Positions 6,393 to 33,464 of a DNA stretch of 41,788 nucleotides are shown here, in pieces. A model generated the notes under the pieces. That model was not told where the DNA came from. It saw only the letters and a list, made by a program, of their open reading frames with translations, and made no database searches. The position numbers and the translations under genes are program-made. The stretch's first letter is position 1; each line of letters opens with the position of its first letter. The DNA comes from a virus, in IMG/VR virus record IMGVR_UViG_3300029531_000014; one strand, 5' to 3'.

Positions 6393-6584
6393 AATCAGTC
6401 TCCTTTTCTTCGGCCCCAGTGCTTCGGGGGCGACTGTGATATAAAAACCGCTGTCCTCTGCGGTGTTTACCAAAAAGAAAAAGGAGCCAATTTACAAGAA
6501 ATTCTTGCAAATCAGCTCCACTTAGCCCTTCTGCCTAAACGCTTATAGACAGGAACAATATTCAATTGCTATGTATTTATTTTA

Positions 6585-7366: not shown

Positions 7367-8667
7367 TATTTCTTTCCTCCATAACGTTTTCGCTCCCTAG
7401 CTCCTGTTCTCCATACCGTTACAACATTTCCTGTGTCTGGGTTTATGTTGACTGTAGCTTCTGCGCCAATAAAGCGTTGGCTTTTTTGTCCTTTGTTGTC
7501 TGTCTTAACTTCCCGGACATATAGGGGATTTGTCACAGCATCGAGAACATGCGAAGATGCCACGCCTCTTTGGTCCCCACGGTCGATTGAGTGGGCTGAA
7601 ACCATTTTGATCTCAATGCCATTTGACGTTCTTTTTCCTATTATATCACTGTATGTGCGGCTTTGCACCCACCTTTCCCACTGTTTATAGGTCATTTCTT
7701 CAACAACCACATTCCGCCCGGTTTTCGGGTCACGCACACGCATTTTTCTCGGTTCCGCTTCTATACCCGGCTTTTCCACCGTCCGCATGGTGCAGCGGCA
7801 TCTGTAGACATTGGAGGGCTTAGCTTGCGGGTCGCCAGGATAGCGTATCTTCCCCAATTCGGAGTTGAAAGACTCATCCCATTCCACTGTCTGTCCGTCT
7901 AGTTTCTGGTGACTGTGGCGGGTCTTTCCGTCTTTGGTAGCCACCCACTGCTTGCGCACTTTAATCCCCTTATCCGCAGCGGCTTTATAGCTGTCCATCC
8001 GTCCGCCGTTCTGGGCGCTAGTAATGGACGTCTGGGCCGCTCGCACGGCGCTGGCACGGTTCATCTCCGTCACCCTGGCTTGCAAATCGGTAGCAATCTT
8101 CCCCACGCTTTTACCTTGCAAAAGTCCGCTGGTAACGCTCTTGGTGATTTGTTTCTTACCCCACTTTAAATCAATTCCCCGTTTGATGGCCTTTTTCTTA
8201 GGGTAATAGGGCATCAGGTCAGGCTCTTCCACGATGAGCCGCCGAATGGTGGATTCATCCCACAAGGTAAACCCCACGTTTCCGGCCACTTTTTCAATGG
8301 TGTACGCCGCATAGTTGCGGTTGAGGGAGTAAATACCCGGCGTGGCGTCATTCACATAGGCGATTGCCACCTCGTTTGCCTTGGTCATACGTTGCGCTAT
8401 CTTCTCCCGCAGGTCTTGATACCGTTCTCCCCGTCCGATCTGGTTGCGCCGCCATCGCTTATAATCCTGCTCCGTCCAAACTTTGCCGTTGATCTCTGTT
8501 CCGATTAGGGCTTTCATTTCCTCATCCCGCTTGCGGAAGCGCTCAAAGTAAATTTTGATAGCGTCGGAAAGCTCGTCCCGCGCCTCTCGGTACACTTTGG
8601 CAATACGCTTTTCCAGCGCGACCAGTTCCTTTTCGGTCAGACGATGGGCTTCATCAGGCTTCGGCAC
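7366..8667 (-). CDS. Head morphogenesis protein (SPP1 gp7 / Mu F family) with a C-terminal toxin-like extension
   Basis: MuF core motifs are present (RAAQTSITSAQNGGR...WVATKDGKTRHSHQKLDGQ...YRCRCTM). A further roughly 130 aa follow, ending SAHSIDRGDQRGVASSHVLDAV...ATVNINPDTGNVVTVWRTG, which looks RelE/BECR-fold or DUF4258-like. Confidence 0.8.
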   Translation of the reverse strand: MPKPDEAHRLTEKELVALEKRIAKVYREARDELSDAIKIYFERFRKRDEEMKALIGTEINGKVWTEQDYKRWRRNQIGRGERYQDLREKIAQRMTKANEVAIAYVNDATPGIYSLNRNYAAYTIEKVAGNVGFTLWDESTIRRLIVEEPDLMPYYPKKKAIKRGIDLKWGKKQITKSVTSGLLQGKSVGKIATDLQARVTEMNRASAVRAAQTSITSAQNGGRMDSYKAAADKGIKVRKQWVATKDGKTRHSHQKLDGQTVEWDESFNSELGKIRYPGDPQAKPSNVYRCRCTMRTVEKPGIEAEPRKMRVRDPKTGRNVVVEEMTYKQWERWVQSRTYSDIIGKRTSNGIEIKMVSAHSIDRGDQRGVASSHVLDAVTNPLYVREVKTDNKGQKSQRFIGAEATVNINPDTGNVVTVWRTGARERKRYGGKK

Positions 8668-10054
8668 CCTCCGTCACCTCGGTTTCCTCTTCCACCTCCG
8701 GTGGGAATGTTTCTTCTTCCAACCGCTCTGTTTCCTCCGCCGCCTTGCGCTCCATCAACGCGTCGTATTGGTCGGCGTCACCGTTGATGGTCAGCAGCTT
8801 TTTTGTAATATATTCGTCGTCGTAATACTCCGCGCCCATGAGGATGGTCTGCGTCTCTTCGGCCCGGTTAATGATGCGGCTACGAGTGTAGGATGGTTCA
8901 TCGTCAATGCCCGCCAAGGCCAGAATCCCAAGAATAAATTCTGTTACGCTGGCCTCAAAGTCATCTACCTTGAGATCAAGAGGCGTGTAGCTGGCGGCAA
9001 TGGCCGTGGCTGTTTGATTGCCAGCTGATACCGCCGAGCTGTCAAACGCCTGGAAATCTTCGTATAGCTTACGTTTGAGCATGTCGATGGTCGCCTCAGT
9101 ACCGCTGAACGGCGCTTCAATGGTGTGCGGTTCGGCTGTTGCTCCCTCATCCCCCTCAACTCCGGCGTGAACGATATGCATCGTGCGCACTTTGTCCAAG
9201 AACTTTGCGTCATCCAGATCCTCCATACCACCGCAGTTAGTCAGCACCCAATAGATCAGATTCCCCTCATCGACATTGTTGACCATGTTGGAGGTACAGA
9301 GGTCGAGCGCATCCACAGTATTTCTCTTTCCGGTCAATTCTGAGAGAGCATCTTCACCATTTTTTAGTGGCACAATCGGGAAGGACGGATAATTCTCGCC
9401 GTCGTAGATTTCCGTCCCATCTGCCTCAGTGCTACGCAAATGCAGGATGTAAGACCGCTTCTCTTTTTTGACTGTCATATCTTCACCGCTACGCTGGATG
9501 TAGTCCGTGTATCCGTCCTCTTCGTACAGAGTTGCTCGCAACGGCTTGTCTTTCGCCACCTGCCAGAAACGGATGCCGGCCATCAGTGCGCCATTCTCTT
9601 CATCATAAAGAGGAACAAATTCCCGCAACTTGAACACGTCCACATGGTCGAGATTCCAAAAACCAAACGAAACGCCAGCAATCAGGGCATATTTCCCGGC
9701 TCTGACTATTTCCAAGTCAAACTTCTTGCCCAGCTTGTCCTTTGTTGCATCATTCTGAAATGTCACACCATTGCCCAAGAGATAGGAAACCTCTTGCCGC
9801 ACATCAAGGCCAAAAAAGCTGCTTGCGATCTTGTGGTTTGCTGTGTACATATCCCTATGAGCATGACCCTGCATATCGTATATAATTTTCTCGTAGCGAT
9901 TGATGGTCGGATTCTCTCCCTTAAAGTATAGTTCAGCATCTACCGCCATTTTATAGGCCTCGCTGCCTTTGTGCTCATTGATCGCCTGCTGGATAAAATC
10001 CATCCGGGCTTTTTCATCTTTTCCCACGGCAAGTAAATCCTGATATGTAAGCAA
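8654..10054 (-). CDS. Portal protein (SPP1 gp6-like)
   Basis: 466 aa between terL and MuF, with an acidic C-terminus and a TTG start after GAGGTGA. Confidence 0.85.
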   Translation of the reverse strand: MLTYQDLLAVGKDEKARMDFIQQAINEHKGSEAYKMAVDAELYFKGENPTINRYEKIIYDMQGHAHRDMYTANHKIASSFFGLDVRQEVSYLLGNGVTFQNDATKDKLGKKFDLEIVRAGKYALIAGVSFGFWNLDHVDVFKLREFVPLYDEENGALMAGIRFWQVAKDKPLRATLYEEDGYTDYIQRSGEDMTVKKEKRSYILHLRSTEADGTEIYDGENYPSFPIVPLKNGEDALSELTGKRNTVDALDLCTSNMVNNVDEGNLIYWVLTNCGGMEDLDDAKFLDKVRTMHIVHAGVEGDEGATAEPHTIEAPFSGTEATIDMLKRKLYEDFQAFDSSAVSAGNQTATAIAASYTPLDLKVDDFEASVTEFILGILALAGIDDEPSYTRSRIINRAEETQTILMGAEYYDDEYITKKLLTINGDADQYDALMERKAAEETERLEEETFPPEVEEETEVTEGAEA

Positions 10055-10058
10055 AAAA

Positions 10059-11291
10059 TCACCTCTCCCACAGTGGGATATATTGCTGTTGTCCCGCCTT
10101 GCGCACCTTATGCCGAAGAATGGTCATTGTGAAGTAACGTATATCATCCATGGCGTGGTCGTTCTCCTTGATCGGCTTGTCCTCCGTGGATTTTTCATCC
10201 CAGCGATACAAGCCGAACTCCCGGATCGCGTCTTTGCAGCTCCGATATACCTTGATCGTCCCGTCTTGGATATATCGGGCCGTAGTAGCAATCCCCGGAA
10301 TCACATCATTGACTGCCTTTTGTACCCTGAACCTCTTGTGCCGCCGGATGACCTCAATAAACGATGCTGCCGACGGGTCAATGACAACGGACTTCACTGG
10401 CAAATCACCAGCCAGCTTTTCCAGTTCAATATAATATTCCTCGTCGGTCTTGTTACTGCGTTCATCCCGCCCCGAGTAGTAGTATTCCCGCACCCGCGTA
10501 GCCACCTTGCCATTCCAGCACCACAGTCCAGCGGAAAATGGGTTTAATGTGCCATAGTCACAGGACATATAATACTCACCACTCTCCGGCACCTCGTCCG
10601 TAATGTTTCTCTCATCAAACATAGGATACACCAGCCCCTCCGCCACAACCCACAACCCTCTAATGAACCGATCATAAAACACACCGGAGAACATGGATTC
10701 ATACTGCTCAATGACCTTCTCCGTCAGCCCTGGGTTATCTCGCATGGTGAAGTGGAGATACAACGCATTTCTTTCATCATGCTTCTTAATCCATTCCAGA
10801 TAAAACCAATGCTGCGGGCTTTCTGGGTTGCAGGAGAACCATTTCTTGTTCCCATCCACAGAACAACGCGCCAGGGCCTGTTCCACGAAGGAACGGGGCA
10901 TAAGCGCAACCTCATCCAATAGAACACCTGCCAGCGTTCGCCCTTGGATCAGTGCCGCGCTGCTTTCATCCTTGCCGCCAAACACCTCAAACCAATTTGT
11001 CGTAGTTCCCCGGCGCACCTCAAGGATCTTCTCTGACCGGCGCCAACGCATGGTATACTTTTCTTTTGCCAGCGTCATAGCTGTGAAAGGGACAATAATA
11101 TTCTTTGAGCATGAATCAACGGTTTTCCCACAAATACCAAACCGCTGACCAGAGAAGTTTTCCATGGCCCAGCGAACAAACGCCCACATCATGATAGAGG
11201 TTTTGCCTGATCGGACTGCACCATCGCAGATAATGGCATCATATTTGGAGTATGGGAATGCAAGGATTTTCTTTTGTTGTGGACTAATCAT
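10059..11291 (-). CDS. terL: Terminase large subunit (PBSX / Terminase_3-like)
   Basis: Walker A motif DGAVRSGKTS, plus LLDE and a C-terminal nuclease region. The ATG overlaps the terS end. Confidence 0.9.
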   Translation of the reverse strand: MISPQQKKILAFPYSKYDAIICDGAVRSGKTSIMMWAFVRWAMENFSGQRFGICGKTVDSCSKNIIVPFTAMTLAKEKYTMRWRRSEKILEVRRGTTTNWFEVFGGKDESSAALIQGRTLAGVLLDEVALMPRSFVEQALARCSVDGNKKWFSCNPESPQHWFYLEWIKKHDERNALYLHFTMRDNPGLTEKVIEQYESMFSGVFYDRFIRGLWVVAEGLVYPMFDERNITDEVPESGEYYMSCDYGTLNPFSAGLWCWNGKVATRVREYYYSGRDERSNKTDEEYYIELEKLAGDLPVKSVVIDPSAASFIEVIRRHKRFRVQKAVNDVIPGIATTARYIQDGTIKVYRSCKDAIREFGLYRWDEKSTEDKPIKENDHAMDDIRYFTMTILRHKVRKAGQQQYIPLWER

Positions 11292-11703
11292 CGCTTTCCA
11301 ACTCCTTTGCCATCTCTCGCAAGCTCTGGCTCAAACCATCTTCCTTTGCATCATTCCCAGGACCACCGCCAAAGGCTGTGAATTTATCAATCAGTGTCCC
11401 AAGCGCTGTCGTAACCTCTGCGGCGCTGCGTGCATTCTGAATCTTCTCTGGAAGAACGGAAAGTCCTACCTCAATAATATCGCATACTGCTTGCCTGCGA
11501 CTTTCCATGTAGGCAAGGATATCGGCTGTATTTTCTTCCTTTTTTTGTCTAAGTTTCTCTGCGAAATCTTCAGATGCCTCCACGACACGCCGAGCAGTTT
11601 CCCCACACACATGATTTCTTTTGGCAACTGCGTTGTAGCTGCCAAGTTCCAGATAATCAGCCACTATTTTCTTTTTCTTCTTATCTGTCAACCGTGCAGC
11701 CAT
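11284..11703 (-). CDS. terS: Terminase small subunit
   Basis: ATG 11703 follows GAGGTTAGTT. N-terminal HTH-like segment MAARLTDKKKKKIVADYLELGSYNAVAKRNHV. It lies immediately upstream of terL. Confidence 0.65.
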   Translation of the reverse strand: MAARLTDKKKKKIVADYLELGSYNAVAKRNHVCGETARRVVEASEDFAEKLRQKKEENTADILAYMESRRQAVCDIIEVGLSVLPEKIQNARSAAEVTTALGTLIDKFTAFGGGPGNDAKEDGLSQSLREMAKELESDD

Positions 11704-11732
11704 AACTAACCTCATCAATAAAAATCTATTTT

Positions 11733-11806
11733 TGGTGGTTCCTCTTGGAATCGAACCAAGGCCCGGCAGTTATGAGCTGCCTGCTCGACCTTCGAGCTAA
11801 AGAACC
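11733..11806 (-). tRNA. tRNA with anticodon CAU (Met, or Ile2 if lysidine-modified), CCA encoded
   Basis: Hand-folded 74-nt cloverleaf: GGTTCTT-TA-GCTC-GAAGGTC-GAGC-A-GGCAG-CTCATAA-CTGCC-GGGC-CTTGG-TTCGATT-CCAAG-AGGAACC-A-CCA. G1-C72 are paired, so it is not an initiator type. Confidence 0.85.
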
Positions 11807-12233
11807 AGATACCCCTTTCGGGGTATGTTGCGGGTTTTGTCAGGCTTTCCGCAGGCCTGTTTACACTTCCGCACGCACCTTCTCTGAAATGGTCTGCGTC
11901 TCCAACCGCAGTTTTCAGTGAAATGGCGAATGGTACGTGCTTCGGTTCACTTCGCGGCCGCAAAGCAATTTGCTGATTCGATAGAAGCACAATCTCCTTC
12001 CATCAAATTTCCCCAGCTGGGAATGGTCACCCGTTTTGGAGTTGCACCAAAATCTGCTCTGGCCGGGTGATAGAGAGACGAGAACAAGGCTCGCGCTCCC
12101 AAAGAAAAAGGAGGTACGCCCGATATTGAGACCGCCTCGGAGCCGGGCGAAGGAGGAAGAAAATCTTCTGTTTTATACATAGCGGCAAAGAAAATAAATT
12201 TTCTTTGCCTGCGTATGTATAAAACCATTTTCT
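11807..12233 (-). ncRNA. Unclassified large structured RNA / structured leader ending at the tRNA
   Basis: No credible ORF is present. The region has its own promoter, a 23-bp 5' hairpin, many nested helices and GNRA loops (details in findings). Confidence 0.5.
12170..12225. repeat. 56-nt near-perfect palindrome (12 bp + 11 bp helix, 4-nt loop)
   Basis: GTTTTATACATA-CGCA-GGCAAAGAAAA-TTTA-TTTTCTTTGCC-GC-TATGTATAAAAC on the minus strand, about 8 nt after the predicted transcription start. Confidence 0.85.
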
Positions 12234-12239
12234 GTCTAA

Positions 12240-12268
12240 ATTATATCGCAGCCCTCCATTTCGGTCAA
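12240..12268 (-). promoter_or_regulatory. Near-consensus sigmaA/sigma70 promoter TTGACC-17-TATAAT
   Basis: -35 at 12268..12263 and -10 at 12245..12240, about 25 nt downstream of the RuvC-like stop. Confidence 0.6.
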
Positions 12269-12294
12269 ATTGTTAGACGATCTTAACACTTTGT

Positions 12295-12762
12295 TTACAA
12301 TTTCAGTTTTGTTTCTATGTACGTAATTCCAACCGCATACGCCGCCCATACATCGGCAGAGAACCCATAGAACCAATCTGGGTTCTTTTTGGTTCCCTTC
12401 CCGTTTTTTAGATCATGGGTTGCAAATCGATCAATCAGTGCGCGGCGAATATTGCCATCCTTGGCCCTGCTGTCATGGCAGAGATGGAGTTTTTCATCCT
12501 GGCGGTATATGTAGTCCACTGGCTTCTGTGCTGCTTGCGTGAATCTCCCCACCCATTCGCAGGTTTCAAAAACATTGCGTCCAACCGGCATGCCGTAGCT
12601 TGCCAAGCGTTCAATGACCACAAGATCATACTTCTCCAACTGGAGCACCAAAAGGACCTCGGCATTTTCTGCTTTGCCAAACCGCAGCGGACGTAAATCT
12701 TCGCTGTCTATGAAGCAATAGGCGCTCTGCTTGTCCCCTGGGTCAATCGCTAAGATTGTCAT
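12295..12762 (-). CDS. RuvC-like Holliday junction resolvase (phage type)
   Basis: MTILAIDPGDKQSAY...VVIERLASYGMPVGRNVFETCEWVGRF, an RNase H-fold resolvase pattern. Confidence 0.65.
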   Translation of the reverse strand: MTILAIDPGDKQSAYCFIDSEDLRPLRFGKAENAEVLLVLQLEKYDLVVIERLASYGMPVGRNVFETCEWVGRFTQAAQKPVDYIYRQDEKLHLCHDSRAKDGNIRRALIDRFATHDLKNGKGTKKNPDWFYGFSADVWAAYAVGITYIETKLKL

Positions 12763-12980
12763 TCATTGCCCTCATGCTGTCCGCCCTCCCCGTCGTGGAC
12801 TTTCTTTTTCATCTCTTTTGCGGCTCCTTCGCCTACACCAAGAGCATACGAATAAATCATCCAGCAAACGAAGCTTCCTACCCAGCAGAAAACCAAAACA
12901 GGCATCGGGACTATAAACCATCCGTTTGCTTTGACAATAGACAGGATGATGCCCAGAAAAAGAAGCAGTTTAATCATCAT
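12759..12980 (-). CDS. Small two-TM membrane protein
   Basis: ATG 12980 overlaps the YopX end. It reads MMIKLLLFLGIILSIV...VPMPVLVFCWVGSFVCWMIY. Confidence 0.5.
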   Translation of the reverse strand: MMIKLLLFLGIILSIVKANGWFIVPMPVLVFCWVGSFVCWMIYSYALGVGEGAAKEMKKKVHDGEGGQHEGNE

Positions 12981-13410
12981 CGTAGCCCTCCCCGTCGTGG
13001 GTGGAGCCGATGACCTCAATTCCGCTCGTTGACAGATGTATATTTACGCCCATGCTTTCAGCGCCATTCAACCAAACACAAAATCTATTCCACTCTTGGT
13101 CATAGCATACAGGGGATTCTTTTTGTTCGCCGTTCCAGTTCGCCCAATGGATGATATCCCCCTCAAAAATCTTCATTCCGTTCTTATCAGTTATTCCGGT
13201 GTACTCGCAGACCGTGGAGGGGTCAACCTCAACTTCATCGTACTCGTGGAGGTTATCAATCCAGCCGAAAAACGTAATTAGACTACCATCATGGGCGCAC
13301 TGGCATTTCCCTTGCCTTTTTAAGGTGCAATCAGCACGGTCATATACCGGATATCCTTCCACCCATTCGCCATTATCCAGCCGCTTAGCTTTGAAAAGGA
13401 TCTCTCTCAT
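12970..13410 (-). CDS. YopX-family protein
   Basis: MREILFKAKRLDNGEWVEGY...EYTGITDKNGMKIFEGDII...IEVIGSTHD. Confidence 0.75.
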   Translation of the reverse strand: MREILFKAKRLDNGEWVEGYPVYDRADCTLKRQGKCQCAHDGSLITFFGWIDNLHEYDEVEVDPSTVCEYTGITDKNGMKIFEGDIIHWANWNGEQKESPVCYDQEWNRFCVWLNGAESMGVNIHLSTSGIEVIGSTHDGEGYDDD

Positions 13411-15936: not shown

Positions 15937-16377
15937 TCATCTCTGTTCTTCCCTCCCCGGCCTAAATATCACAACCATGCACGGAAACGGTGCATTCCAT
16001 TTGGCGCCGACAAATTTTAGACGTCCAGGCACAAACCGGATCTCTGCCTGGTGATAGATGTACCGGTGAAACCACTGCGTATCCGTTCTGGCTGGCAGCA
16101 GCATCACGACCGTGGCACCTTCTGCAACGCTGGAAGCCGCTTTTTCGACCCATTTCCCGATCTTCCGTCCATAAGGAGGATTGCACCATACAACACCGGT
16201 CCAGATCTGAGACAATCCGTCTTGCTCTGGGGTGTAGTACCTTTCACACTTCGCATTCCACGGCAGAGCGCATGCGTCCAGGGAAAAACAAAACTCTGCA
16301 TTGAGTTGGTCAAAAAATGCTTGCGGTGTTTCCCAGAGATCCGTTGTGCTGGTAAACATTCCTTTTGTGATACTCAA
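15937..16377 (-). CDS. dam: Phage-type DNA N6-adenine methyltransferase (Dam family)
   Basis: DLWETPQAFFDQLNAEFCFSLDACA...NAKC...VWCNPPYG...LLPARTDTQWFH. The TTG 16377 start overlaps the HNH stop (TTGA); ATG 16359 is an alternative start. Confidence 0.8.
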   Translation of the reverse strand: MSITKGMFTSTTDLWETPQAFFDQLNAEFCFSLDACALPWNAKCERYYTPEQDGLSQIWTGVVWCNPPYGRKIGKWVEKAASSVAEGATVVMLLPARTDTQWFHRYIYHQAEIRFVPGRLKFVGAKWNAPFPCMVVIFRPGREEQR

Positions 16378-17006
16378 TCTTTTCCCCCCAGCGTCGCCAA
16401 TTCCCCGCCGCAAGCTGCGTAGCGCCATTCGTACCCGGCTGTTCTTTTCCTTCGACCTTTCAGCACTGCGCAAATATTTGATGAATCAGCCCCTATACTT
16501 TCTGCCGCGTCTTTAGTTGAACTATACTTTCTAACAACAACTCCATTCTGCAAGCACTCAACCGGAATAGACAATTTAGATGCAATTTTCTTTCTACTCT
16601 CTTTCGATAGAGACCGCCCAAGCAACTGTTTTCGCACTCGATCATATTCTGACGGATTTTTCTCAAAGTGCGCTTTCATGGATTCACTCATTTTCCTTCT
16701 TGCTTGCCCATAATTTACATTATACTTCGTCGTGCACCATTCTAAATTCCTAACATTATTGTTAGATTTGTTTTCGTCTATATGGTTTATAATCGGAAAA
16801 TTATTGGGATTCTCTATAAATGCCTCAGCAACAAGCCTGTGGACAAAAAAATTTTTCCATTTCCCATCATCGTACAGCCTAACCTTTACGTAGCCTCCAT
16901 GCCCTTTCTTTATCGGCTTTAACTCCTTTGTTTTCCCGCGCTTCTTCGAGAAAACTTTTCCGTCTTCGGAAACGAAGTAATCTTTCCCATAATCAATCTT
17001 TTTCAT
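16374..17006 (-). CDS. Free-standing HNH homing endonuclease (NUMOD4/HNH_3/IENR-like)
   Basis: FVHRLVAEAFIENPNNFPIINHIDENKSNNNVRNLEWCT, plus a C-terminal S..AA...G.....I......GRRKRTAGYEW module. The segment is AT-rich compared with its flanks. Confidence 0.8.
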   Translation of the reverse strand: MKKIDYGKDYFVSEDGKVFSKKRGKTKELKPIKKGHGGYVKVRLYDDGKWKNFFVHRLVAEAFIENPNNFPIINHIDENKSNNNVRNLEWCTTKYNVNYGQARRKMSESMKAHFEKNPSEYDRVRKQLLGRSLSKESRKKIASKLSIPVECLQNGVVVRKYSSTKDAAESIGADSSNICAVLKGRRKRTAGYEWRYAACGGELATLGGKD

Positions 17007-17316
17007 ATTCCCCACCTACATCGGTTTCTCTTGTCGCTATTTCTCCTCCGCAGCAACCGTATCCGACCAAATCAATCCAGCTATCAATGTGCTCAGGGTT
17101 TACAGATGCCCGAGCAATCTTGAGCAAGGCCATCATGGCCGCCACATCCTCCGGCTCTAACTGTACATGGACCCCAGCGGCAACACACTTCGCACTGAGG
17201 TAGGTGTGCCAGAATTCCGCAATCAAACGGAAGCTATTTTCTGGAATTCCATAATCCTGCTCCCGATCTCCACACACGCACTTCTCCGCAGCGGCGAGAA
17301 TTTCTTTTCTTGTCAT
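16993..17316 (-). CDS. DUF6378-like phage protein
   Basis: GDREQDYGIPENSFRLIAEFW...EDVAAMMALLKIARA...DSWIDLVGY. Confidence 0.55.
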   Translation of the reverse strand: MTRKEILAAAEKCVCGDREQDYGIPENSFRLIAEFWHTYLSAKCVAAGVHVQLEPEDVAAMMALLKIARASVNPEHIDSWIDLVGYGCCGGEIATRETDVGGEYEKD

Positions 17317-26814: not shown

Positions 26815-26919
26815 AAAATCCGCCCCCGGTGTTGGCGCACCGAGGACGGTTGTAGAAGGGAAGATGCTTTGCAAGGGCTATCTTCCCTTCTATTCTAACG
26901 AATGGAAGGAGTATTGTCA

Positions 26920-27990
26920 ATGTTATGTATCAAGTGCAAAAAAGAAATACCAGAATATTCTATCTTTTGCCCTTTATGCGGGAAAAAGCAGGTTGCCGAA
27001 AAAAGAAAAGCTTTGAAAAGAGCAAATGGAACAGGGACTGTATATAAGCTCCAGGGGCGCCGGAAACGGCCCTGGGTGGCCGCAAAGAACCGAGTAATAA
27101 TAGGATACTACGAAACTAAGACAAGTGCTATGGAGGCGTTAGAGGGATTATCAGGACGTAATCTGTCAGATCGGTATAACATGACGTTTGCCGAGGTGTT
27201 TGATGAGTGGAAGACGGAACACTACAAAGAAATAACCAAAAGTGGTATTTCCTCCTATGACAGGGCATTTGATATATTCGAAAAACTGCATAGGCGAAAA
27301 TTCCGGGATTTAAGAACTGTCGATTTTCAGTCGATTATAGACCAGCACATGGACAAAACACAATCAACCGTATCAAAGTATAAGCAACTCATTACCCAAA
27401 TGTCTCGATGGGCGATCCGGGAAGAAATTTGCACAACAAATTTTGCAAAGTTCGTCAAGGTTCCGGAACGTATAAAAAAAGAAAAAGACATTTTCACAGA
27501 AGAAGAAATCAAAAAATTAGAAGAAGATGGAAGCGAAGCAGCCAGGATAATTCTAATGCTTCTATCGACAGGAATGCGGATAGGAGAACTTTTTTCCCTC
27601 CCTCTGAATAGTTATCACAAAACATACGTGATCGGTGGATCAAAGACGGAGGCAGGACGAGGAAGGGTAATCCCCATCCGGCCAGAAGGGCGGAAGCACT
27701 TTGAATACTTTGCCGGACAAGCAACTGGGCCGCTCCTGCTCTCTGGGTATGTAGGAGAAAAGCGACTTGAGAATTACCGGAGACGCAATTATTATCCACT
27801 TCTAAAGCGTCTCGGTATTGAGCGGCATACTCCGCATGCAACCAGACACACTTACACATCAAGGGCGGTCAAGGAGGGGATGTCTCCTGAAGTGCTACAA
27901 AAAATTCTCGGCCACGCAGACTATTCCACGACAGCAAACGTCTATACTCACATCGACATTGACACACTGGTTGAGGCAGTCGAGCGTTAG
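26920..27990 (+). CDS. int: Tyrosine integrase with N-terminal zinc ribbon
   Basis: CIKCKKEIPEYSIFCPLCGKK at the N-terminus and HATRHTYTSRAV...LGHADYSTTANVYTH at the C-terminus. Adjacent to attP. Confidence 0.9.
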   Translation: MLCIKCKKEIPEYSIFCPLCGKKQVAEKRKALKRANGTGTVYKLQGRRKRPWVAAKNRVIIGYYETKTSAMEALEGLSGRNLSDRYNMTFAEVFDEWKTEHYKEITKSGISSYDRAFDIFEKLHRRKFRDLRTVDFQSIIDQHMDKTQSTVSKYKQLITQMSRWAIREEICTTNFAKFVKVPERIKKEKDIFTEEEIKKLEEDGSEAARIILMLLSTGMRIGELFSLPLNSYHKTYVIGGSKTEAGRGRVIPIRPEGRKHFEYFAGQATGPLLLSGYVGEKRLENYRRRNYYPLLKRLGIERHTPHATRHTYTSRAVKEGMSPEVLQKILGHADYSTTANVYTHIDIDTLVEAVER

Positions 27991-32699: not shown

Positions 32700-33464
32700 T
32701 TACAGTAATCCTTTTCGCCCCAGCACTGCAATCACCTCATCCCGTTTCATGGGGCGCTCCGGGCTGGTGCCATCCACGATGCCATTTGCCACAGCCTTTG
32801 CCCAATGTCCCTCCTGTTGGGACCAGGCGGGCTCAGACAGCGTCTTCGCGTGGAGCTCTGCTTTCTGCATGAGCTGGTAGGCTTGTTCGTTGGTCATTTC
32901 AGAGATCAACTTTGCAATATCCATGGGTTCATCCTCTCCTTCCAGCCGCCGGTTGACCTCGGCGGCAATCTCTCCGTGCCGATTGTATAGATAATCCCCC
33001 GGGCAGGCCTTGGCGGCGAACCACCGGTGAACCGTCATATTCTGCTTGTCCGCCTGGCCGATCAAGGATTTATCCCCTTTCCACAGTAGTTTCTTGATCC
33101 CATTTCTCCGGCAGATATCCGTCAATAGGTCCAGCAATGCGGCGTAGGCTTTGTCTGACACCGGCCAATCCGGCGCCCCACCATTGTTGGCCACCTCAAT
33201 GGTGATGGCCCGATGATCGTTGGAGGCGCTGGAGGTACACCAGGACCGATTTGCTTCATCTACATATAAGGCAATCCGTCCGTCGCTTCCAATGCCGTAG
33301 TTGCTGCTGGCCTTGCGGGACGGGTCGGCAAACAAGGCCCCGCAAGTCTCTACGCTGGCATTGCCCGCCATGCAGTGGATGGAAACGGTGTCGATTACAT
33401 GGTTGCGCCGCCCGGAATGGTTAGGGGATCGTTTGGTGTAGGTTACAAGTGGGCTGTTACTCAT
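32700..33464 (-). CDS. Endolysin: N-acetylmuramoyl-L-alanine amidase (Amidase_2/PGRP type) with a C-terminal binding region
   Basis: VIDTVSIHCMAG...SSNYGIGSDGRIALYVDE...AITIEVAN...AKACPG. ATG follows GGAGTGAGGAGTGG. Confidence 0.85.
   Translation of the reverse strand: MSNSPLVTYTKRSPNHSGRRNHVIDTVSIHCMAGNASVETCGALFADPSRKASSNYGIGSDGRIALYVDEANRSWCTSSASNDHRAITIEVANNGGAPDWPVSDKAYAALLDLLTDICRRNGIKKLLWKGDKSLIGQADKQNMTVHRWFAAKACPGDYLYNRHGEIAAEVNRRLEGEDEPMDIAKLISEMTNEQAYQLMQKAELHAKTLSEPAWSQQEGHWAKAVANGIVDGTSPERPMKRDEVIAVLGRKGLL

What the first reader, a model, noticed from the sequence alone, without database searches (positions are those of the whole stretch)
11733..12268. Promoter-driven, roughly 430-nt highly structured non-coding RNA fused to a tRNA(CAU) immediately upstream of terS
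About 590 nt between the RuvC-like stop (12295) and terS (11703) have no credible coding capacity. The two track ORFs here run through a tRNA and a 23-bp hairpin. On the minus strand I read the following elements in order.
- A near-consensus promoter TTGACC-17-TATAAT (12268..12240).
- A 56-nt near-perfect hairpin starting about 8 nt after the predicted start (12225..12170).
- About 360 nt of nested helices. Examples: TCACCCG...TTTTGG-tgcaact-CCAAAA-CGGGTGA; CTGAAAACTGCG-gttggaga-CGCAGaccaTTTCAG enclosed by GCACGTACC/GGTGCGTGC; CGCCCG...CGGGCG; CAGGC-ctgcggaaa-GCCTG; and ATACCCC-GAAA-GGGGTAT at 11826..11809.
- A canonical 74-nt tRNA with encoded CCA, only 2 nt after the last hairpin.
Large ornate RNAs (GOLLD, ROOL) are known to sit beside tRNAs in phages and prophages. 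This element looks shorter than I remember those being, so it could be a truncated relative, a new class, or a processed leader or antitermination element for the late operon.
Basis: partly seen in the sequence, partly recalled or inferred. Interest (0 to 1): 0.85.

Follow-up and report, generated by a model that had tools for sequence, protein, structure and literature searches.

The report
Modular structured phage RNA fused to tRNA
The 590-base gap before the DNA-packaging genes of a very common human-gut prophage encodes no protein but a roughly 430-nt folded RNA joined to a tRNA, built from modules that recur next to tRNAs in hundreds of other gut phages and match no catalogued RNA family; its function is unknown.

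Summary
Window 12268..11733 (-) has a near-consensus promoter, a 56-nt hairpin, about 360 nt of strongly folding non-coding sequence (z = -5.9) and a canonical tRNA(CAU) 2 nt after the last hairpin. Neither internal ORF is conserved. About 90 human-gut phage contigs carry the same leader at 84-99% identity. Compensatory and strand-specific G-U changes occur, and the central 185 nt diverge 3-5 times less than third codon positions of the upstream resolvase gene.

It is not GOLLD or ROOL: nothing but the tRNA reaches threshold in Rfam 15, even at E<=10. Three of its modules belong to wider, undescribed motifs:
- a CUGAAAAC/GACAAUCUAAG internal-loop domain (87 versions; 8 of 12 pairs compensatory);
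- a hairpin plus GNRA hairpin that ends 2 nt before tRNAs (at least 120 contigs);
- a T-loop-like hairpin.

The domain lies at quantised distances from same-strand tRNAs, sometimes inside tRNA arrays. It sits upstream of packaging genes of unrelated families.

Best reading (about 0.5): a new modular, tRNA-punctuated phage ncRNA, made as a precursor with the tRNA and released by RNase P. This is the same kind as GOLLD/ROOL but unrelated to them. Main rival (about 0.3): a purely cis-acting late-operon leader. Function and transcript ends are untested.

The parts
12240..12268 (-). Sigma-70/SigA-type promoter TTGACC-17-TATAAT. The predicted start is near 12233.
   Evidence: 11 of 12 matches, the best site in 11000-13000. 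Both hexamers are unchanged in most of the 30 related leader variants. The promoter is absent from the L106-type variants. Transcription is not shown.
12170..12225 (-). 56-nt near-perfect hairpin with a small internal loop. It is specific to this phage group.
   Evidence: Present in the MFE and centroid folds. Three pairs show compensatory changes (AU/GC, GC/AU, CG/GC) and two pairs show G-U only on this strand. It is long enough for RNase III, but this is inference only.
12071..12169 (-). 5' domain. It has CU-rich tracts, including two boxes identical to the 16S rRNA 3' tail: CCUCCUU starts at 12156, and ACCUCCUUU is at 12116..12108. It also has GC-rich hairpins.
   Evidence: Mean pairwise divergence is 0.025, against 0.073 at resolvase third codon positions. 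RNAalifold pairs 12165..12153 with GAUGGAAGGAGAUU at 12004..11991, but that helix is invariant and therefore untested. Anti-SD-like boxes also occur in the unrelated leaders L040, L052 and L053.
12027..12070 (-). T-loop-like element: closing helix UCACCCG/CGGGUGA, junction GCCAGAGCAGA, and hairpin UUUUGG-UGCAACU-CCAAAA abutting the 3' strand. ACCA follows at 12027..12024.
   Evidence: Invariant in all ~90 contigs. In other leaders the same loop UGCAA(A/C)U has different stems (GGCUG/CAGUC, GUGAGG/CCUCAC) and different closing helices. There are 36 occurrences against 0.5 in shuffles. The ACCA is not conserved in those relatives.
11985..12026 (-). Invariant continuation: hairpin UUCCC-AGCUG-GGGAA (12023..12009) and the purine box GAUGGAAGGAGAUU (12004..11991).
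   Evidence: The segment 12070..11985 has mean divergence 0.014, the lowest in the leader and below the first and second codon positions of the neighbouring genes.
11871..11940 (-). CUGAAAAC/GAC(A/C)AU(C/U)U(A/C)AG internal-loop domain. The outer helix is GCACGUACC/GGUGCGUGC, then CAC/(G)AG, then the inner hairpin UGCG(G)-UUGGAGA-CGCA.
   Evidence: A regex anchored on the loop strands alone finds 87 distinct versions, including in phages whose terS is 36-67% identical or unrelated. On 44 versions, 86.6% of cells pair against 26-50% when partners are slid. Eight of 12 pairs have compensatory changes (72 cells; shuffles 28.7 +/- 6.4; 0 of 500 reach the observed count).
11809..11863 (-). 3' module: helix UGCGG/CCGCA around the loop AAAGCCUGACAAAAC (a possible pseudoknot with CAGGC/GCCUG), then AAC, then the 7-bp hairpin AUACCCC-GNAA-GGGGUAU.
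   Evidence: Found in at least 120 IMG/VR contigs. It is single-copy in the window: 85.4 bits, next best 14 bits. The helix has seven sequence versions. The tetraloop is GAAA, GCAA, GGAA or GUAA. Diverged copies in L040 and L052 also end 2 nt before a tRNA.
11733..11806 (-). tRNA(CAU) with encoded CCA. Residues 1 and 72 pair, so it is an elongator Met or Ile2 type, not an initiator.
   Evidence: ARAGORN; Rfam RF00005 55.7 bits. Related phages carry a second allele in the same slot, with compensatory stem changes.
11284..11703 (-). Context: putative small terminase. It is followed by terL (10059..11291) and an SPP1-type portal (8654..10054).
   Evidence: Position and N-terminal HTH-like sequence; no Pfam or PHROG hit for the candidate terS itself. 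terL and the portal are confirmed.
12295..12762 (-). Context: RuvC-like Holliday junction resolvase, the last gene before the leader.
   Evidence: PHROG 1770, E = 7e-20.

Best explanation
Window 12235..11807 (-) is a non-coding, structured RNA of a previously uncatalogued modular family. It is carried by temperate phages of human-gut Clostridia.

Proposed pathway:
- It is transcribed from its own strong promoter as one precursor with the tRNA(CAU), and by read-through with the terS-terL-portal genes.
- RNase P cleavage at the tRNA 5' end fixes its 3' end 2 nt after the GNRA hairpin. This would release an RNA of about 430 nt.

The RNA is a chain of modules:
- a lineage-specific 5' hairpin;
- a CU-rich 5' domain with anti-Shine-Dalgarno look-alikes;
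- a T-loop-like hairpin stacked on a closing helix;
- the CUGAAAAC/GACAAUCUAAG internal-loop domain;
- a pseudoknot-capable hairpin plus a GNRA hairpin.

In other phages the last three modules are placed between tRNAs like extra members of a tRNA array. I therefore read the family as tRNA-punctuated accessory RNAs, the same kind of object as GOLLD and ROOL but not related to them. Their conserved loops (T-loop, GNRA, A-rich internal loop) would serve tertiary folding or a conserved host partner.

Shown:
- the stretch is non-coding;
- it is conserved;
- structure is strand-specific, with covariation in several modules;
- modules are shared with other phages;
- spacing to tRNAs is fixed;
- no Rfam family matches.

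Inferred:
- transcription from the promoter;
- RNase P release and accumulation as a discrete RNA;
- any activity in trans.
For: Non-coding and structured:
- z = -5.86.
- ORFs are broken in 12 of 31 and 6 of 31 variants.

Conserved:
- 45 viral contigs and 43 human-gut metagenome contigs carry the leader at 84-99% identity; 45 full-length variants are distinct.
- The central 185 nt diverge 0.014-0.025, against 0.073 and 0.125 at third codon positions of the flanking genes.

Structure on this strand:
- 8 pairs (44 cells) have compensatory change, against at most 3 pairs (6 cells) when partners are slid.
- Many one-sided changes give G-U on this strand, which would be A-C on the other.

Modules are real motifs beyond this lineage:
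- CUGAAAAC domain: 87 versions, 8 of 12 pairs compensatory, 0 of 500 shuffles as good.
- 3' module: at least 120 contigs, seven helix versions, tetraloop GNAA with all four N.
- T-loop hairpin: three stem versions, 36 occurrences against 0.5 by chance.

tRNA punctuation:
- The module ends exactly 2 nt before tRNAs of several different sequences.
- Upstream tRNA end to CUGAAA is 65-71 nt in 10 cases.
- AAG to the next tRNA is 14-18 nt (6 cases) or 77 nt (18 cases).
- 0 of 87 contexts have an opposite-strand tRNA.
- The domain sits inside tRNA arrays in L343, L348 and L375.

Not tied to one protein:
- Downstream genes include this terS family (42 of 87), GP3_package terS, an HTH protein that may be a small terminase (L110), terL and portal.

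Known analogues:
- GOLLD and ROOL are phage and prophage RNAs near tRNA islands, and tRNAs sometimes lie inside the GOLLD linker (PMC12286853; PMC5737381).
Against: - No expression data, so the promoter, the transcript ends and RNase P processing are all inferred.
- The window-type core of about 340 nt exists only in one narrow phage group (at least 84% identity). Its most conserved helices never vary, so covariation says nothing about them.
- Averaged over its whole length, the leader diverges about as fast as resolvase third codon positions (0.065 against 0.073).
- About a dozen variants have the leader but no tRNA after it; a GCNNGA-loop hairpin stands there instead. RNase P release therefore cannot be universal.
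- No terminator separates the RNA from terS. By position it is also a 5' UTR, which fits a cis role equally well.
- The spliced alignment for the domain was built by hand. One unpaired U was removed in non-window types after inspection, which favours the inner helix slightly.
Confidence: 0.5

Rival explanations
1. It is purely a cis-acting leader of the late (packaging and structural) operon. The conserved RNA modules would act on the transcribing polymerase or on the mRNA itself. Possible modes are processive antitermination of the put/EAR/nut kind, 5' stabilisation after processing, or control of terS translation. The tRNA would simply be lodged in a well-transcribed leader, as in Stx phages.
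For: - It has the same orientation as the first packaging gene and lies directly upstream of it, with no terminator before terS.
- The domain lies upstream of packaging genes of unrelated families, at a median of 290 nt from terS homologues and 33 nt from terL in L357.
- A strong intrinsic terminator (17-bp stem plus U run) lies inside the late region at 6519..6483 (-). It would need read-through if the capsid genes depend on this promoter.
- The phage is temperate: integrase at 26902-27990. A near-consensus promoter in front of late genes therefore calls for some downstream control.
- The GNRA hairpin preceded by an A-rich conserved stretch recalls boxA/boxB (my own knowledge, not tested).
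Against: - In L343, L348 and L375 the domain sits in the middle of tRNA arrays with up to seven tRNAs after it. Its spacing to flanking tRNAs is quantised. This is hard to explain by translation control of terS and is not needed for antitermination.
- Processing at the tRNA would sever the modules from the mRNA.
- No terminator lies within the leader for the modules to override.
- No antiterminator or NusG-paralogue gene is evident next to it.
Confidence: 0.3
2. It is a DNA-level site rather than an RNA. Candidates are the pac or terminase-recognition region, an operator (the 56-bp palindrome just after the promoter), or conserved linker sequences that promote mosaic recombination between phage modules.
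For: - PBSX-type terL and an SPP1-type portal suggest headful packaging, and pac sites usually lie in or just before terS (family knowledge).
- The 3' module marks recombination joints. The sequence diverges exactly after it, and a Bro-N gene is inserted between duplicated copies of the GNRA hairpin.
- Symmetric changes also keep the palindrome as a DNA operator.
Against: - Helices covary while loops stay fixed, the signature of a folded single strand.
- One-sided changes give G-U on the minus strand only.
- The same modules precede non-homologous terS families and even terL or portal. The window-type core also occurs without this terS. A TerS-specific site is therefore unlikely.
Confidence: 0.06
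3. It is decayed remains of a phage tRNA array, that is pseudo-tRNAs and spacers. It would be conserved only because the phages are recent relatives and would have no function of its own.
For: - Degenerate tRNA-like pieces are common in related leaders: sub-threshold tRNA hits in L074, and T-arm-like sequences in L025 and L219.
- The central element has an acceptor and T-arm topology and is followed by ACCA.
- Whole-leader divergence is close to the synonymous rate.
Against: - The central 185 nt are 3-5 times more conserved than resolvase third codon positions, and the 86-nt centre (0.014) is below even its first and second positions (0.023).
- The domain and the 3' module keep their loops and compensate their helices across phages whose terS is only 36-67% identical.
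Confidence: 0.07
4. It is a diverged or truncated member of GOLLD or ROOL.
For: Only the context fits: a phage setting, a position next to a Met-type tRNA, and large size.
Against: - Neither family appears in the window at E<=10 with relaxed filters.
- Neither reaches its gathering score in 32 related loci, nor appears at E<=5 or E<=1 in 10 of them.
- At 340-430 nt it is smaller than ROOL (about 580 nt) and GOLLD (about 800 nt).
- None of its conserved loop sequences was reported by those models.
Confidence: 0.02

Closest known systems
GOLLD (RF01998) and ROOL (RF03087), the large ornate phage and prophage RNAs
   Same: - Encoded by phages and prophages, beside or between tRNA genes (GOLLD env-38 lies downstream of a Met-tRNA, and tRNAs occur in the GOLLD linker).
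- Several hundred nucleotides long, multi-domain, with conserved and variable parts.
- No associated protein and no known function (PMC12286853; PMC5737381).
   Different: - No sequence or structure match.
- Shorter: about 340-430 nt.
- Modular, with modules that shuffle, occur alone and are separated by tRNAs.
- Consistently placed at the head of the packaging genes.
- Oligomerisation is unknown.
cow-rumen-3 RNA (RF03083; Weinberg et al. 2017 candidate motif)
   Same: - One distant relative of the leader, L040 2491-2618, aligns to it at 26.4 bits (E about 4e-4 for that stretch).
- The alignment includes the conserved single strand AAAAACUACCGU, which corresponds to CUGAAAACUGCCGU.
- Both come from gut or rumen metagenomes.
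   Different: - The score is far below the gathering score of 86.7.
- The window itself and eight other relatives give no hit.
- The Rfam model ends before the 3' partner strand GACAAUCUAAG. At best it describes part of a related RNA.
Late-operon leaders with cis-acting RNA signals (lambda PR'-6S/qut, HK022 put, lambda nut boxA/boxB, Bacillus EAR), and the Stx-phage late leader carrying tRNA genes
   Same: - A strong promoter followed by a long untranslated structured leader in front of a long late operon that contains an internal terminator.
- A tRNA lodged in the leader.
- A GNRA-type hairpin after a conserved A-rich stretch.
   Different: - No sequence similarity.
- No terminator within the leader.
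- No antiterminator gene alongside.
- The modules also occur inside tRNA arrays.
- The comparison rests on my knowledge of those systems, not on a test.
tRNA-punctuated processing and tRNA-like elements (mitochondrial punctuation, mascRNA, P1 c4 and P4 CI RNAs matured by RNase P)
   Same: - A non-tRNA RNA whose end would be defined by RNase P cleavage at an adjoining tRNA.
- An internal acceptor/T-arm-like minihelix with a T-loop-like heptaloop.
   Different: - Processing has not been demonstrated.
- The RNA is much larger than c4 or CI.
- No antisense target has been identified.

Membership tests
tRNA (RF00005), for 11733..11806 | Cloverleaf scoring above the Rfam gathering score, with an anticodon loop and acceptor stem | tested here: met
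   55.7 bits against 29. ARAGORN calls tRNA-Met(CAU). CCA is encoded.
GOLLD (RF01998) | Match to the covariance model, especially the universally conserved 3' domain | tested here: not met
   No hit at the gathering score or at E<=10 with relaxed filters on 11600-12400.
ROOL (RF03087) | Match to the covariance model (about 580 nt, six multistem junctions, three pseudoknots) | tested here: not met
   No hit. The core is only about 340 nt.
GOLLD/ROOL kind (context only) | Encoded in a phage or prophage next to tRNA genes | tested here: met
   The window has an integrase, an amidase and a terminase. A tRNA lies 2 nt downstream. Relatives lie inside tRNA arrays.
GOLLD/ROOL kind (context only) | Accumulates as an abundant discrete RNA; forms homo-oligomeric particles | not testable with these tools
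   Needs RNA-seq or Northern blots, and native gels or cryo-EM.
cow-rumen-3 (RF03083) | Score at or above the gathering score of 86.7 | tested here: not met
   The window gives no hit at E<=10. The relative L040 scores 26.4 bits. Eight other relatives give no hit at E<=1.
CUGAAAAC/GACAAUCUAAG domain (family defined here) | Two conserved loop strands flanked by an outer and an inner helix that covary, with an inner insert of variable length | tested here: met
   The window copy is at 11940..11871. There are 87 versions, and 8 of 12 pairs are compensatory. The window has the UUUCAG variant of the 3' strand, which closes the loop into Watson-Crick pairs.
S2 hairpin + GNRA hairpin module (family defined here) | A 5-6-bp helix around AAAGCC..CAAA, then a 7-bp hairpin with a GNAA loop, ending 2 nt before a tRNA or a GCNNGA-loop hairpin | tested here: met
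   85.4 bits with model R1, but the window copy was in the training set. Independent diverged copies in L040 and L052 score 29 bits, each before a tRNA.
Intrinsic terminator (for the hairpin 11826..11809) | GC-rich stem followed directly by a conserved U tract | tested here: not met
   It is flagged only because the tRNA begins CUGGUUCUUU. With the other tRNA allele, or with the GCNNGA hairpin, the tail is CUGGUCCGCUAUC or AUAUGCCG.
Protein-coding gene | An open frame kept across relatives | tested here: not met
   Frames are broken in 12 of 31 and 6 of 31 variants, and indels are not multiples of three. Gene callers leave the gap empty in 6 of 8 public contigs.
Processive-antitermination leader (put, nut, EAR, Q types) | The RNA element makes RNA polymerase read through downstream terminators | not testable with these tools
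   Only circumstantial: promoter, long leader, and a terminator at 6519..6483.

The most novel reading that the evidence does not exclude
These modules define a new class of tRNA-island RNA in some of the most abundant temperate phages of the human gut. The precursor would be cut by tRNA-processing enzymes into one or more stable folded RNAs. Their T-loop, GNRA and pseudoknot elements would build a compact particle, possibly self-assembling like ROOL and GOLLD. The particle would act in trans on the host translation or tRNA machinery. One example is through its exact copies of the 16S rRNA 3' tail (ACCUCCUUU), acting as a decoy for Shine-Dalgarno sequences or for defence nucleases that target rRNA or tRNA.
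Probability: 0.15. Interest if true: 0.85.

Novelty: new variant of a known kind. Interest (0 to 1): 0.62.

Why it matters
- Phage-borne, tRNA-linked structured RNAs (GOLLD, ROOL) are among the largest bacterial RNAs whose function is still unknown. Only a few classes are known, which limits inference.
- This is a further, unrelated example with useful properties. It is short and modular. It is found in a phage whose exact terL occurs on more than 400 public contigs, and one of whose proteins occurs in more than 500 blocks of public assemblies. A cultivable candidate host genus is indicated (Evtepia).
- The quantised spacing to tRNAs makes one idea directly testable: that such RNAs are matured by the tRNA-processing machinery.
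- The alternative cis reading would give the first RNA-based late-gene control element for gut Clostridia phages.
- For annotation, it explains a recurrent roughly 600-nt 'empty' gap in front of terS. It also explains why gene callers sometimes place spurious ORFs there.

Tried and rejected
- **Sequence searches for distant core homologues:** blastn against GenBank phages found only the tRNA. An nhmmer profile of the leader found no distant homologue. The wider family came only from motif-level searches.
- **Distant RuvC loci:** L127-L159 have genes rather than a gap after the resolvase, so they are uninformative.
- **Wasted scan:** one viral scan was lost to an off-by-one pattern.
- **Host from genomes:** the genome-collection scan with a 19-mer gave two chance hits of 20-21 nt, in a Rhizobiaceae MAG and a Methanomicrobiales MAG. 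No species-representative genome carries the core, so the host rests on one MAG name.
- **Stem covariation in the T-loop hairpin:** a degenerate metagenome scan meant to reveal it returned only the same stems.
- **Literature:** supplements of the two large csRNA catalogues and of Weinberg 2017 are not held. I could not check whether parts of this family are listed there without a name. No paper mentions cow-rumen-3 in its text.
- **Rejected readings:**
  - the CAGGC/GCCTG hairpin as the main helix, because it shows no covariation;
  - the GNRA hairpin as a terminator;
  - the central element as a true tRNA or CCA-bearing mimic, because ACCA is not conserved in relatives;
  - a kink-turn, hammerhead or known ribozyme reading of the internal loop, because the consensus does not fit and Rfam gives no hit.
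- **Inconclusive:** scans for a promoter-proximal terminator in the other leader types L025 and L053.
Full report
**What is in the window.**
- On the minus strand, the resolvase gene (12762..12295; PHROG 1770) is followed by 591 nt without a credible gene. Next come a putative small terminase (11703..11284), a PBSX-type large terminase and an SPP1-type portal.
- The gap starts with TTGACC-17-TATAAT (12268..12240; 11 of 12).
- It ends with a canonical tRNA(CAU) with encoded CCA at 11806..11733.
- The RNA from the predicted start to the tRNA end folds 5.9 standard deviations better than dinucleotide shuffles.
- The window also holds an integrase (26902-27990) and an amidase (32700-33464), so this is a temperate phage.
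- Its exact terL is on 417 public contigs and is 99% identical to one from an Evtepia gabavorous MAG. The resolvase protein is in 506 blocks of public assemblies.

**Not coding, not a known RNA.**
- The 93-aa and 91-aa ORFs are frameshifted, lack a start codon or contain stops in 12 and 6 of 31 related variants. One runs through the tRNA, and indels of 1, 2, 5 and 29 nt occur.
- Rfam 15 gives only the tRNA at gathering scores. At E<=10 with relaxed filters it gives only noise on the long hairpin. GOLLD and ROOL do not appear.

**The close family.**
- Protein-anchored and DNA-pattern searches brought in 45 IMG/VR contigs and 43 human-gut metagenome contigs. Two of the latter are 0.6 and 1.4 Mb long, that is, integrated prophages. 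They carry the same leader at 84-99% identity, with 45 distinct full-length versions.
- On 32 versions the RNAalifold structure has 121 pairs. Eight pairs (44 cells) show compensatory changes, against at most 3 pairs (6 cells) when partners are slid. Many one-sided changes give G-U on this strand only.
- The informative helices are the 5' hairpin and the 3' domain. The central helices never vary.
- Divergence is very uneven:

| Segment or site class | Mean pairwise divergence |
|---|---|
| 12070..11985 | 0.014 |
| 12169..12071 | 0.025 |
| 3' domain (11940..11871) | 0.147 |
| Resolvase, third codon positions | 0.073 |
| terS, third codon positions | 0.125 |
| Resolvase, first and second positions | 0.023 |

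- The centre is thus under strong sequence constraint, while the 3' domain changes fast but keeps its pairs.
- One variant group (L106 type) replaces the promoter and the 56-nt hairpin with an XRE-type ORF plus another hairpin, and has a diverged 5' domain. The conserved unit therefore begins near 12150.

**The leader is a mosaic of modules with a wider distribution.**

(a) *The last 55 nt (11863..11809).*
- This module occurs in at least 120 viral contigs, far more than carry the core. It follows quite different upstream sequences.
It is UGCGG/CCGCA around the loop AAAGCCUGACAAAAC.
- That helix has seven sequence versions: UGCGG/CCGCA, CGCGG/CCGCAG, CCCGG/CCGGAG, CUCCGG/CCGGAG, UCGGG/CCCGA, GCAGG/CCUGC and GUGAG/CUCAC. 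The two helices could form a pseudoknot.
- The second hairpin keeps a GNAA loop with all four N. One copy has a compensated stem (AUAGCCC/GGGCUAU).
- A covariance model finds the module once in the window (85 bits; next best 14). It also finds diverged copies in L040 and L052.
- In every case the module ends 2 nt before a tRNA (several different tRNAs), or before a hairpin with a GCNNGA hexaloop in the same position.

- This belongs to a motif with two conserved strands, CUGAAAAC and GAC(A/C)AU(C/U)U(A/C)AG. They are flanked by an outer and an inner helix, with an insert of 15-90 nt.
- A search anchored only on the two strands finds 87 distinct versions.
- On 44 versions, 86.6% of cells pair (26-50% when slid). 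Eight of 12 pairs have compensatory changes (72 cells; 0 of 500 shuffles reach that).

(c) *The invariant central hairpin UUUUGG-UGCAACU-CCAAAA with its closing helix.*
- It has counterparts with the same T-loop-like loop but other stems (GGCUG/CAGUC, GUGAGG/CCUCAC) and other closing helices. There are 36 occurrences against 0.5 in shuffles.
- The ACCA that follows it in the window is not conserved, so I do not call it a tRNA mimic.

**Relation to tRNAs and to packaging genes.**
- Around the 87 domain versions, 17 have a same-strand tRNA within 700 nt upstream and 29 downstream. None has an opposite-strand tRNA.
- Distances are quantised: 65-71 nt from the end of the upstream tRNA; 14-18 nt, or 77 nt in the window type, to the next tRNA.
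- In L343, L348 and L375 the domain sits inside arrays of 8-11 tRNAs. There it is preceded by two further conserved hairpins, giving a unit of about 200 nt bounded by tRNAs.
- Downstream protein genes are this terS family in 42 of 87 cases (36-99% identity; median 290 nt away). Otherwise they are GP3_package-type small terminases, a short HTH protein that may be a small terminase, a large terminase 33 nt away, a portal, or an inserted Bro-N gene.
- The window-type core itself also occurs without this terS (L082 type).

**Interpretation.**
- The data rule out a coding gene, a GOLLD/ROOL relative and a terminator reading of the last hairpin.
- They argue against a TerS-specific DNA site: the same modules occur with unrelated terminases, helices covary while loops stay fixed, and G-U pairs appear on one strand only.
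- Two RNA-level readings remain, and they are not exclusive.
- I favour (about 0.5) a tRNA-punctuated accessory RNA, made as a precursor with the tRNA and freed by RNase P. The reasons are the exact 2-nt junction, the quantised spacing and the placement inside tRNA arrays.
- This is the same kind of object as GOLLD and ROOL, which are phage RNAs at tRNA islands with tRNAs sometimes inside the GOLLD linker (PMC12286853).
- The rival (about 0.3) is a purely cis-acting late-operon leader. It fits the constant position and orientation ahead of packaging genes, the lack of a terminator before terS, a strong terminator within the late region at 6519..6483, and the need to control a near-consensus promoter in a lysogen.
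- Nothing here shows transcription, processing or activity.

**Closest catalogued family.**
- A distant relative (L040) aligns weakly to cow-rumen-3 (26.4 bits against a gathering score of 86.7), through the strand that corresponds to CUGAAAACUGCCGU.
- The window and eight other relatives do not. This is a lead to a possible superfamily, not membership.
- Bulk catalogues of candidate structured RNAs from viromes and human microbiomes (PMC10690425, PMC8040213) may contain fragments of these motifs. Their tables were not available to check.

**Verdict.** The finding is real and more interesting than a single odd leader. It is the entry point to an uncatalogued, modular, tRNA-associated RNA family in abundant gut phages. 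Its function is unknown, and the window-type core is confined to a narrow lineage, which tempers the score.

Noticed in passing
L126 807-1580 (ORF 923-1570); also L122, L118, L121, L303, L259: A Bro-N (PF02498) antirepressor-like gene of about 215 aa is inserted between the 3' module (plus a GCNNGA hairpin) and a second copy of the GNRA hairpin plus tRNA. The hairpin is thus duplicated at both ends of the insert.
   Followed up: partly
window 11733-11806 compared with L091, L101, L124 and others (alignment columns 526-600): Two alleles of the tRNA(CAU), about 70% identical and with compensatory stem changes, occupy the same slot 2 nt after the hairpin. Whether they are Met or lysidine-dependent Ile2 tRNAs was not determined.
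   Followed up: no
window 12116-12108 and 12156-12150 (-); L040 2140-2160; L052 2540-2560; L053 2655-2670: CU-rich boxes ((A)CCUCCUU(U)) match the 3' tail of Firmicute 16S rRNA (the anti-Shine-Dalgarno sequence); ACCUCCUUU is exact at 12116-12108. They recur in otherwise unrelated leaders. CCTCCTTT occurs 28 times on the same strand and 2 times on the opposite strand in 87 contexts, though redundancy inflates this.
   Followed up: partly
window 6483-6519 (-): A strong intrinsic terminator (17-bp stem plus U run) lies inside the late region, between a 144-aa ORF and the putative scaffold and capsid genes.
   Followed up: no
L018, L040, L051, L105, L219, L238 and others, just after the GNRA hairpin or after the CUGAAAAC domain: A hairpin with a conserved GCNNGA hexaloop (GCAUGA, GCACGA, GCAGGA or GCGGGA), a 3-bp inner stem, a conserved R-G mismatch and a covarying outer stem. 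It always follows (A/C)(C/U)AUAUGCC and sits exactly where a tRNA sits in other phages.
   Followed up: partly
L106 3470-3700; L040 1800-2010; L052 2210-2440: Some leader variants are preceded by a short XRE-type HTH ORF in the same orientation instead of the strong promoter. It is a candidate late regulator.
   Followed up: no
L343 880-2970; L348 5600-7090; L375 8420-10520: Phage tRNA arrays of 8-11 tRNAs have the CUGAAAAC domain embedded as if it were an array member. Several sub-threshold tRNA-like elements lie alongside.
   Followed up: partly
L045 1944-2013; L400 6728-6790: Known Rfam motifs occur elsewhere in related phage loci: int-alpA RNA (51.8 bits) and GP20-b RNA (42.6 bits).
   Followed up: no
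window 15937-17015 (-): An HNH/NUMOD homing-endonuclease gene overlaps the start of a Dam-type methyltransferase gene upstream of the resolvase module.
   Followed up: no
L330 and L331 3581-4018 (-): In some public assemblies, gene callers place a 145-aa opposite-strand ORF inside the leader. It overlaps the structured RNA and is probably spurious.
   Followed up: no
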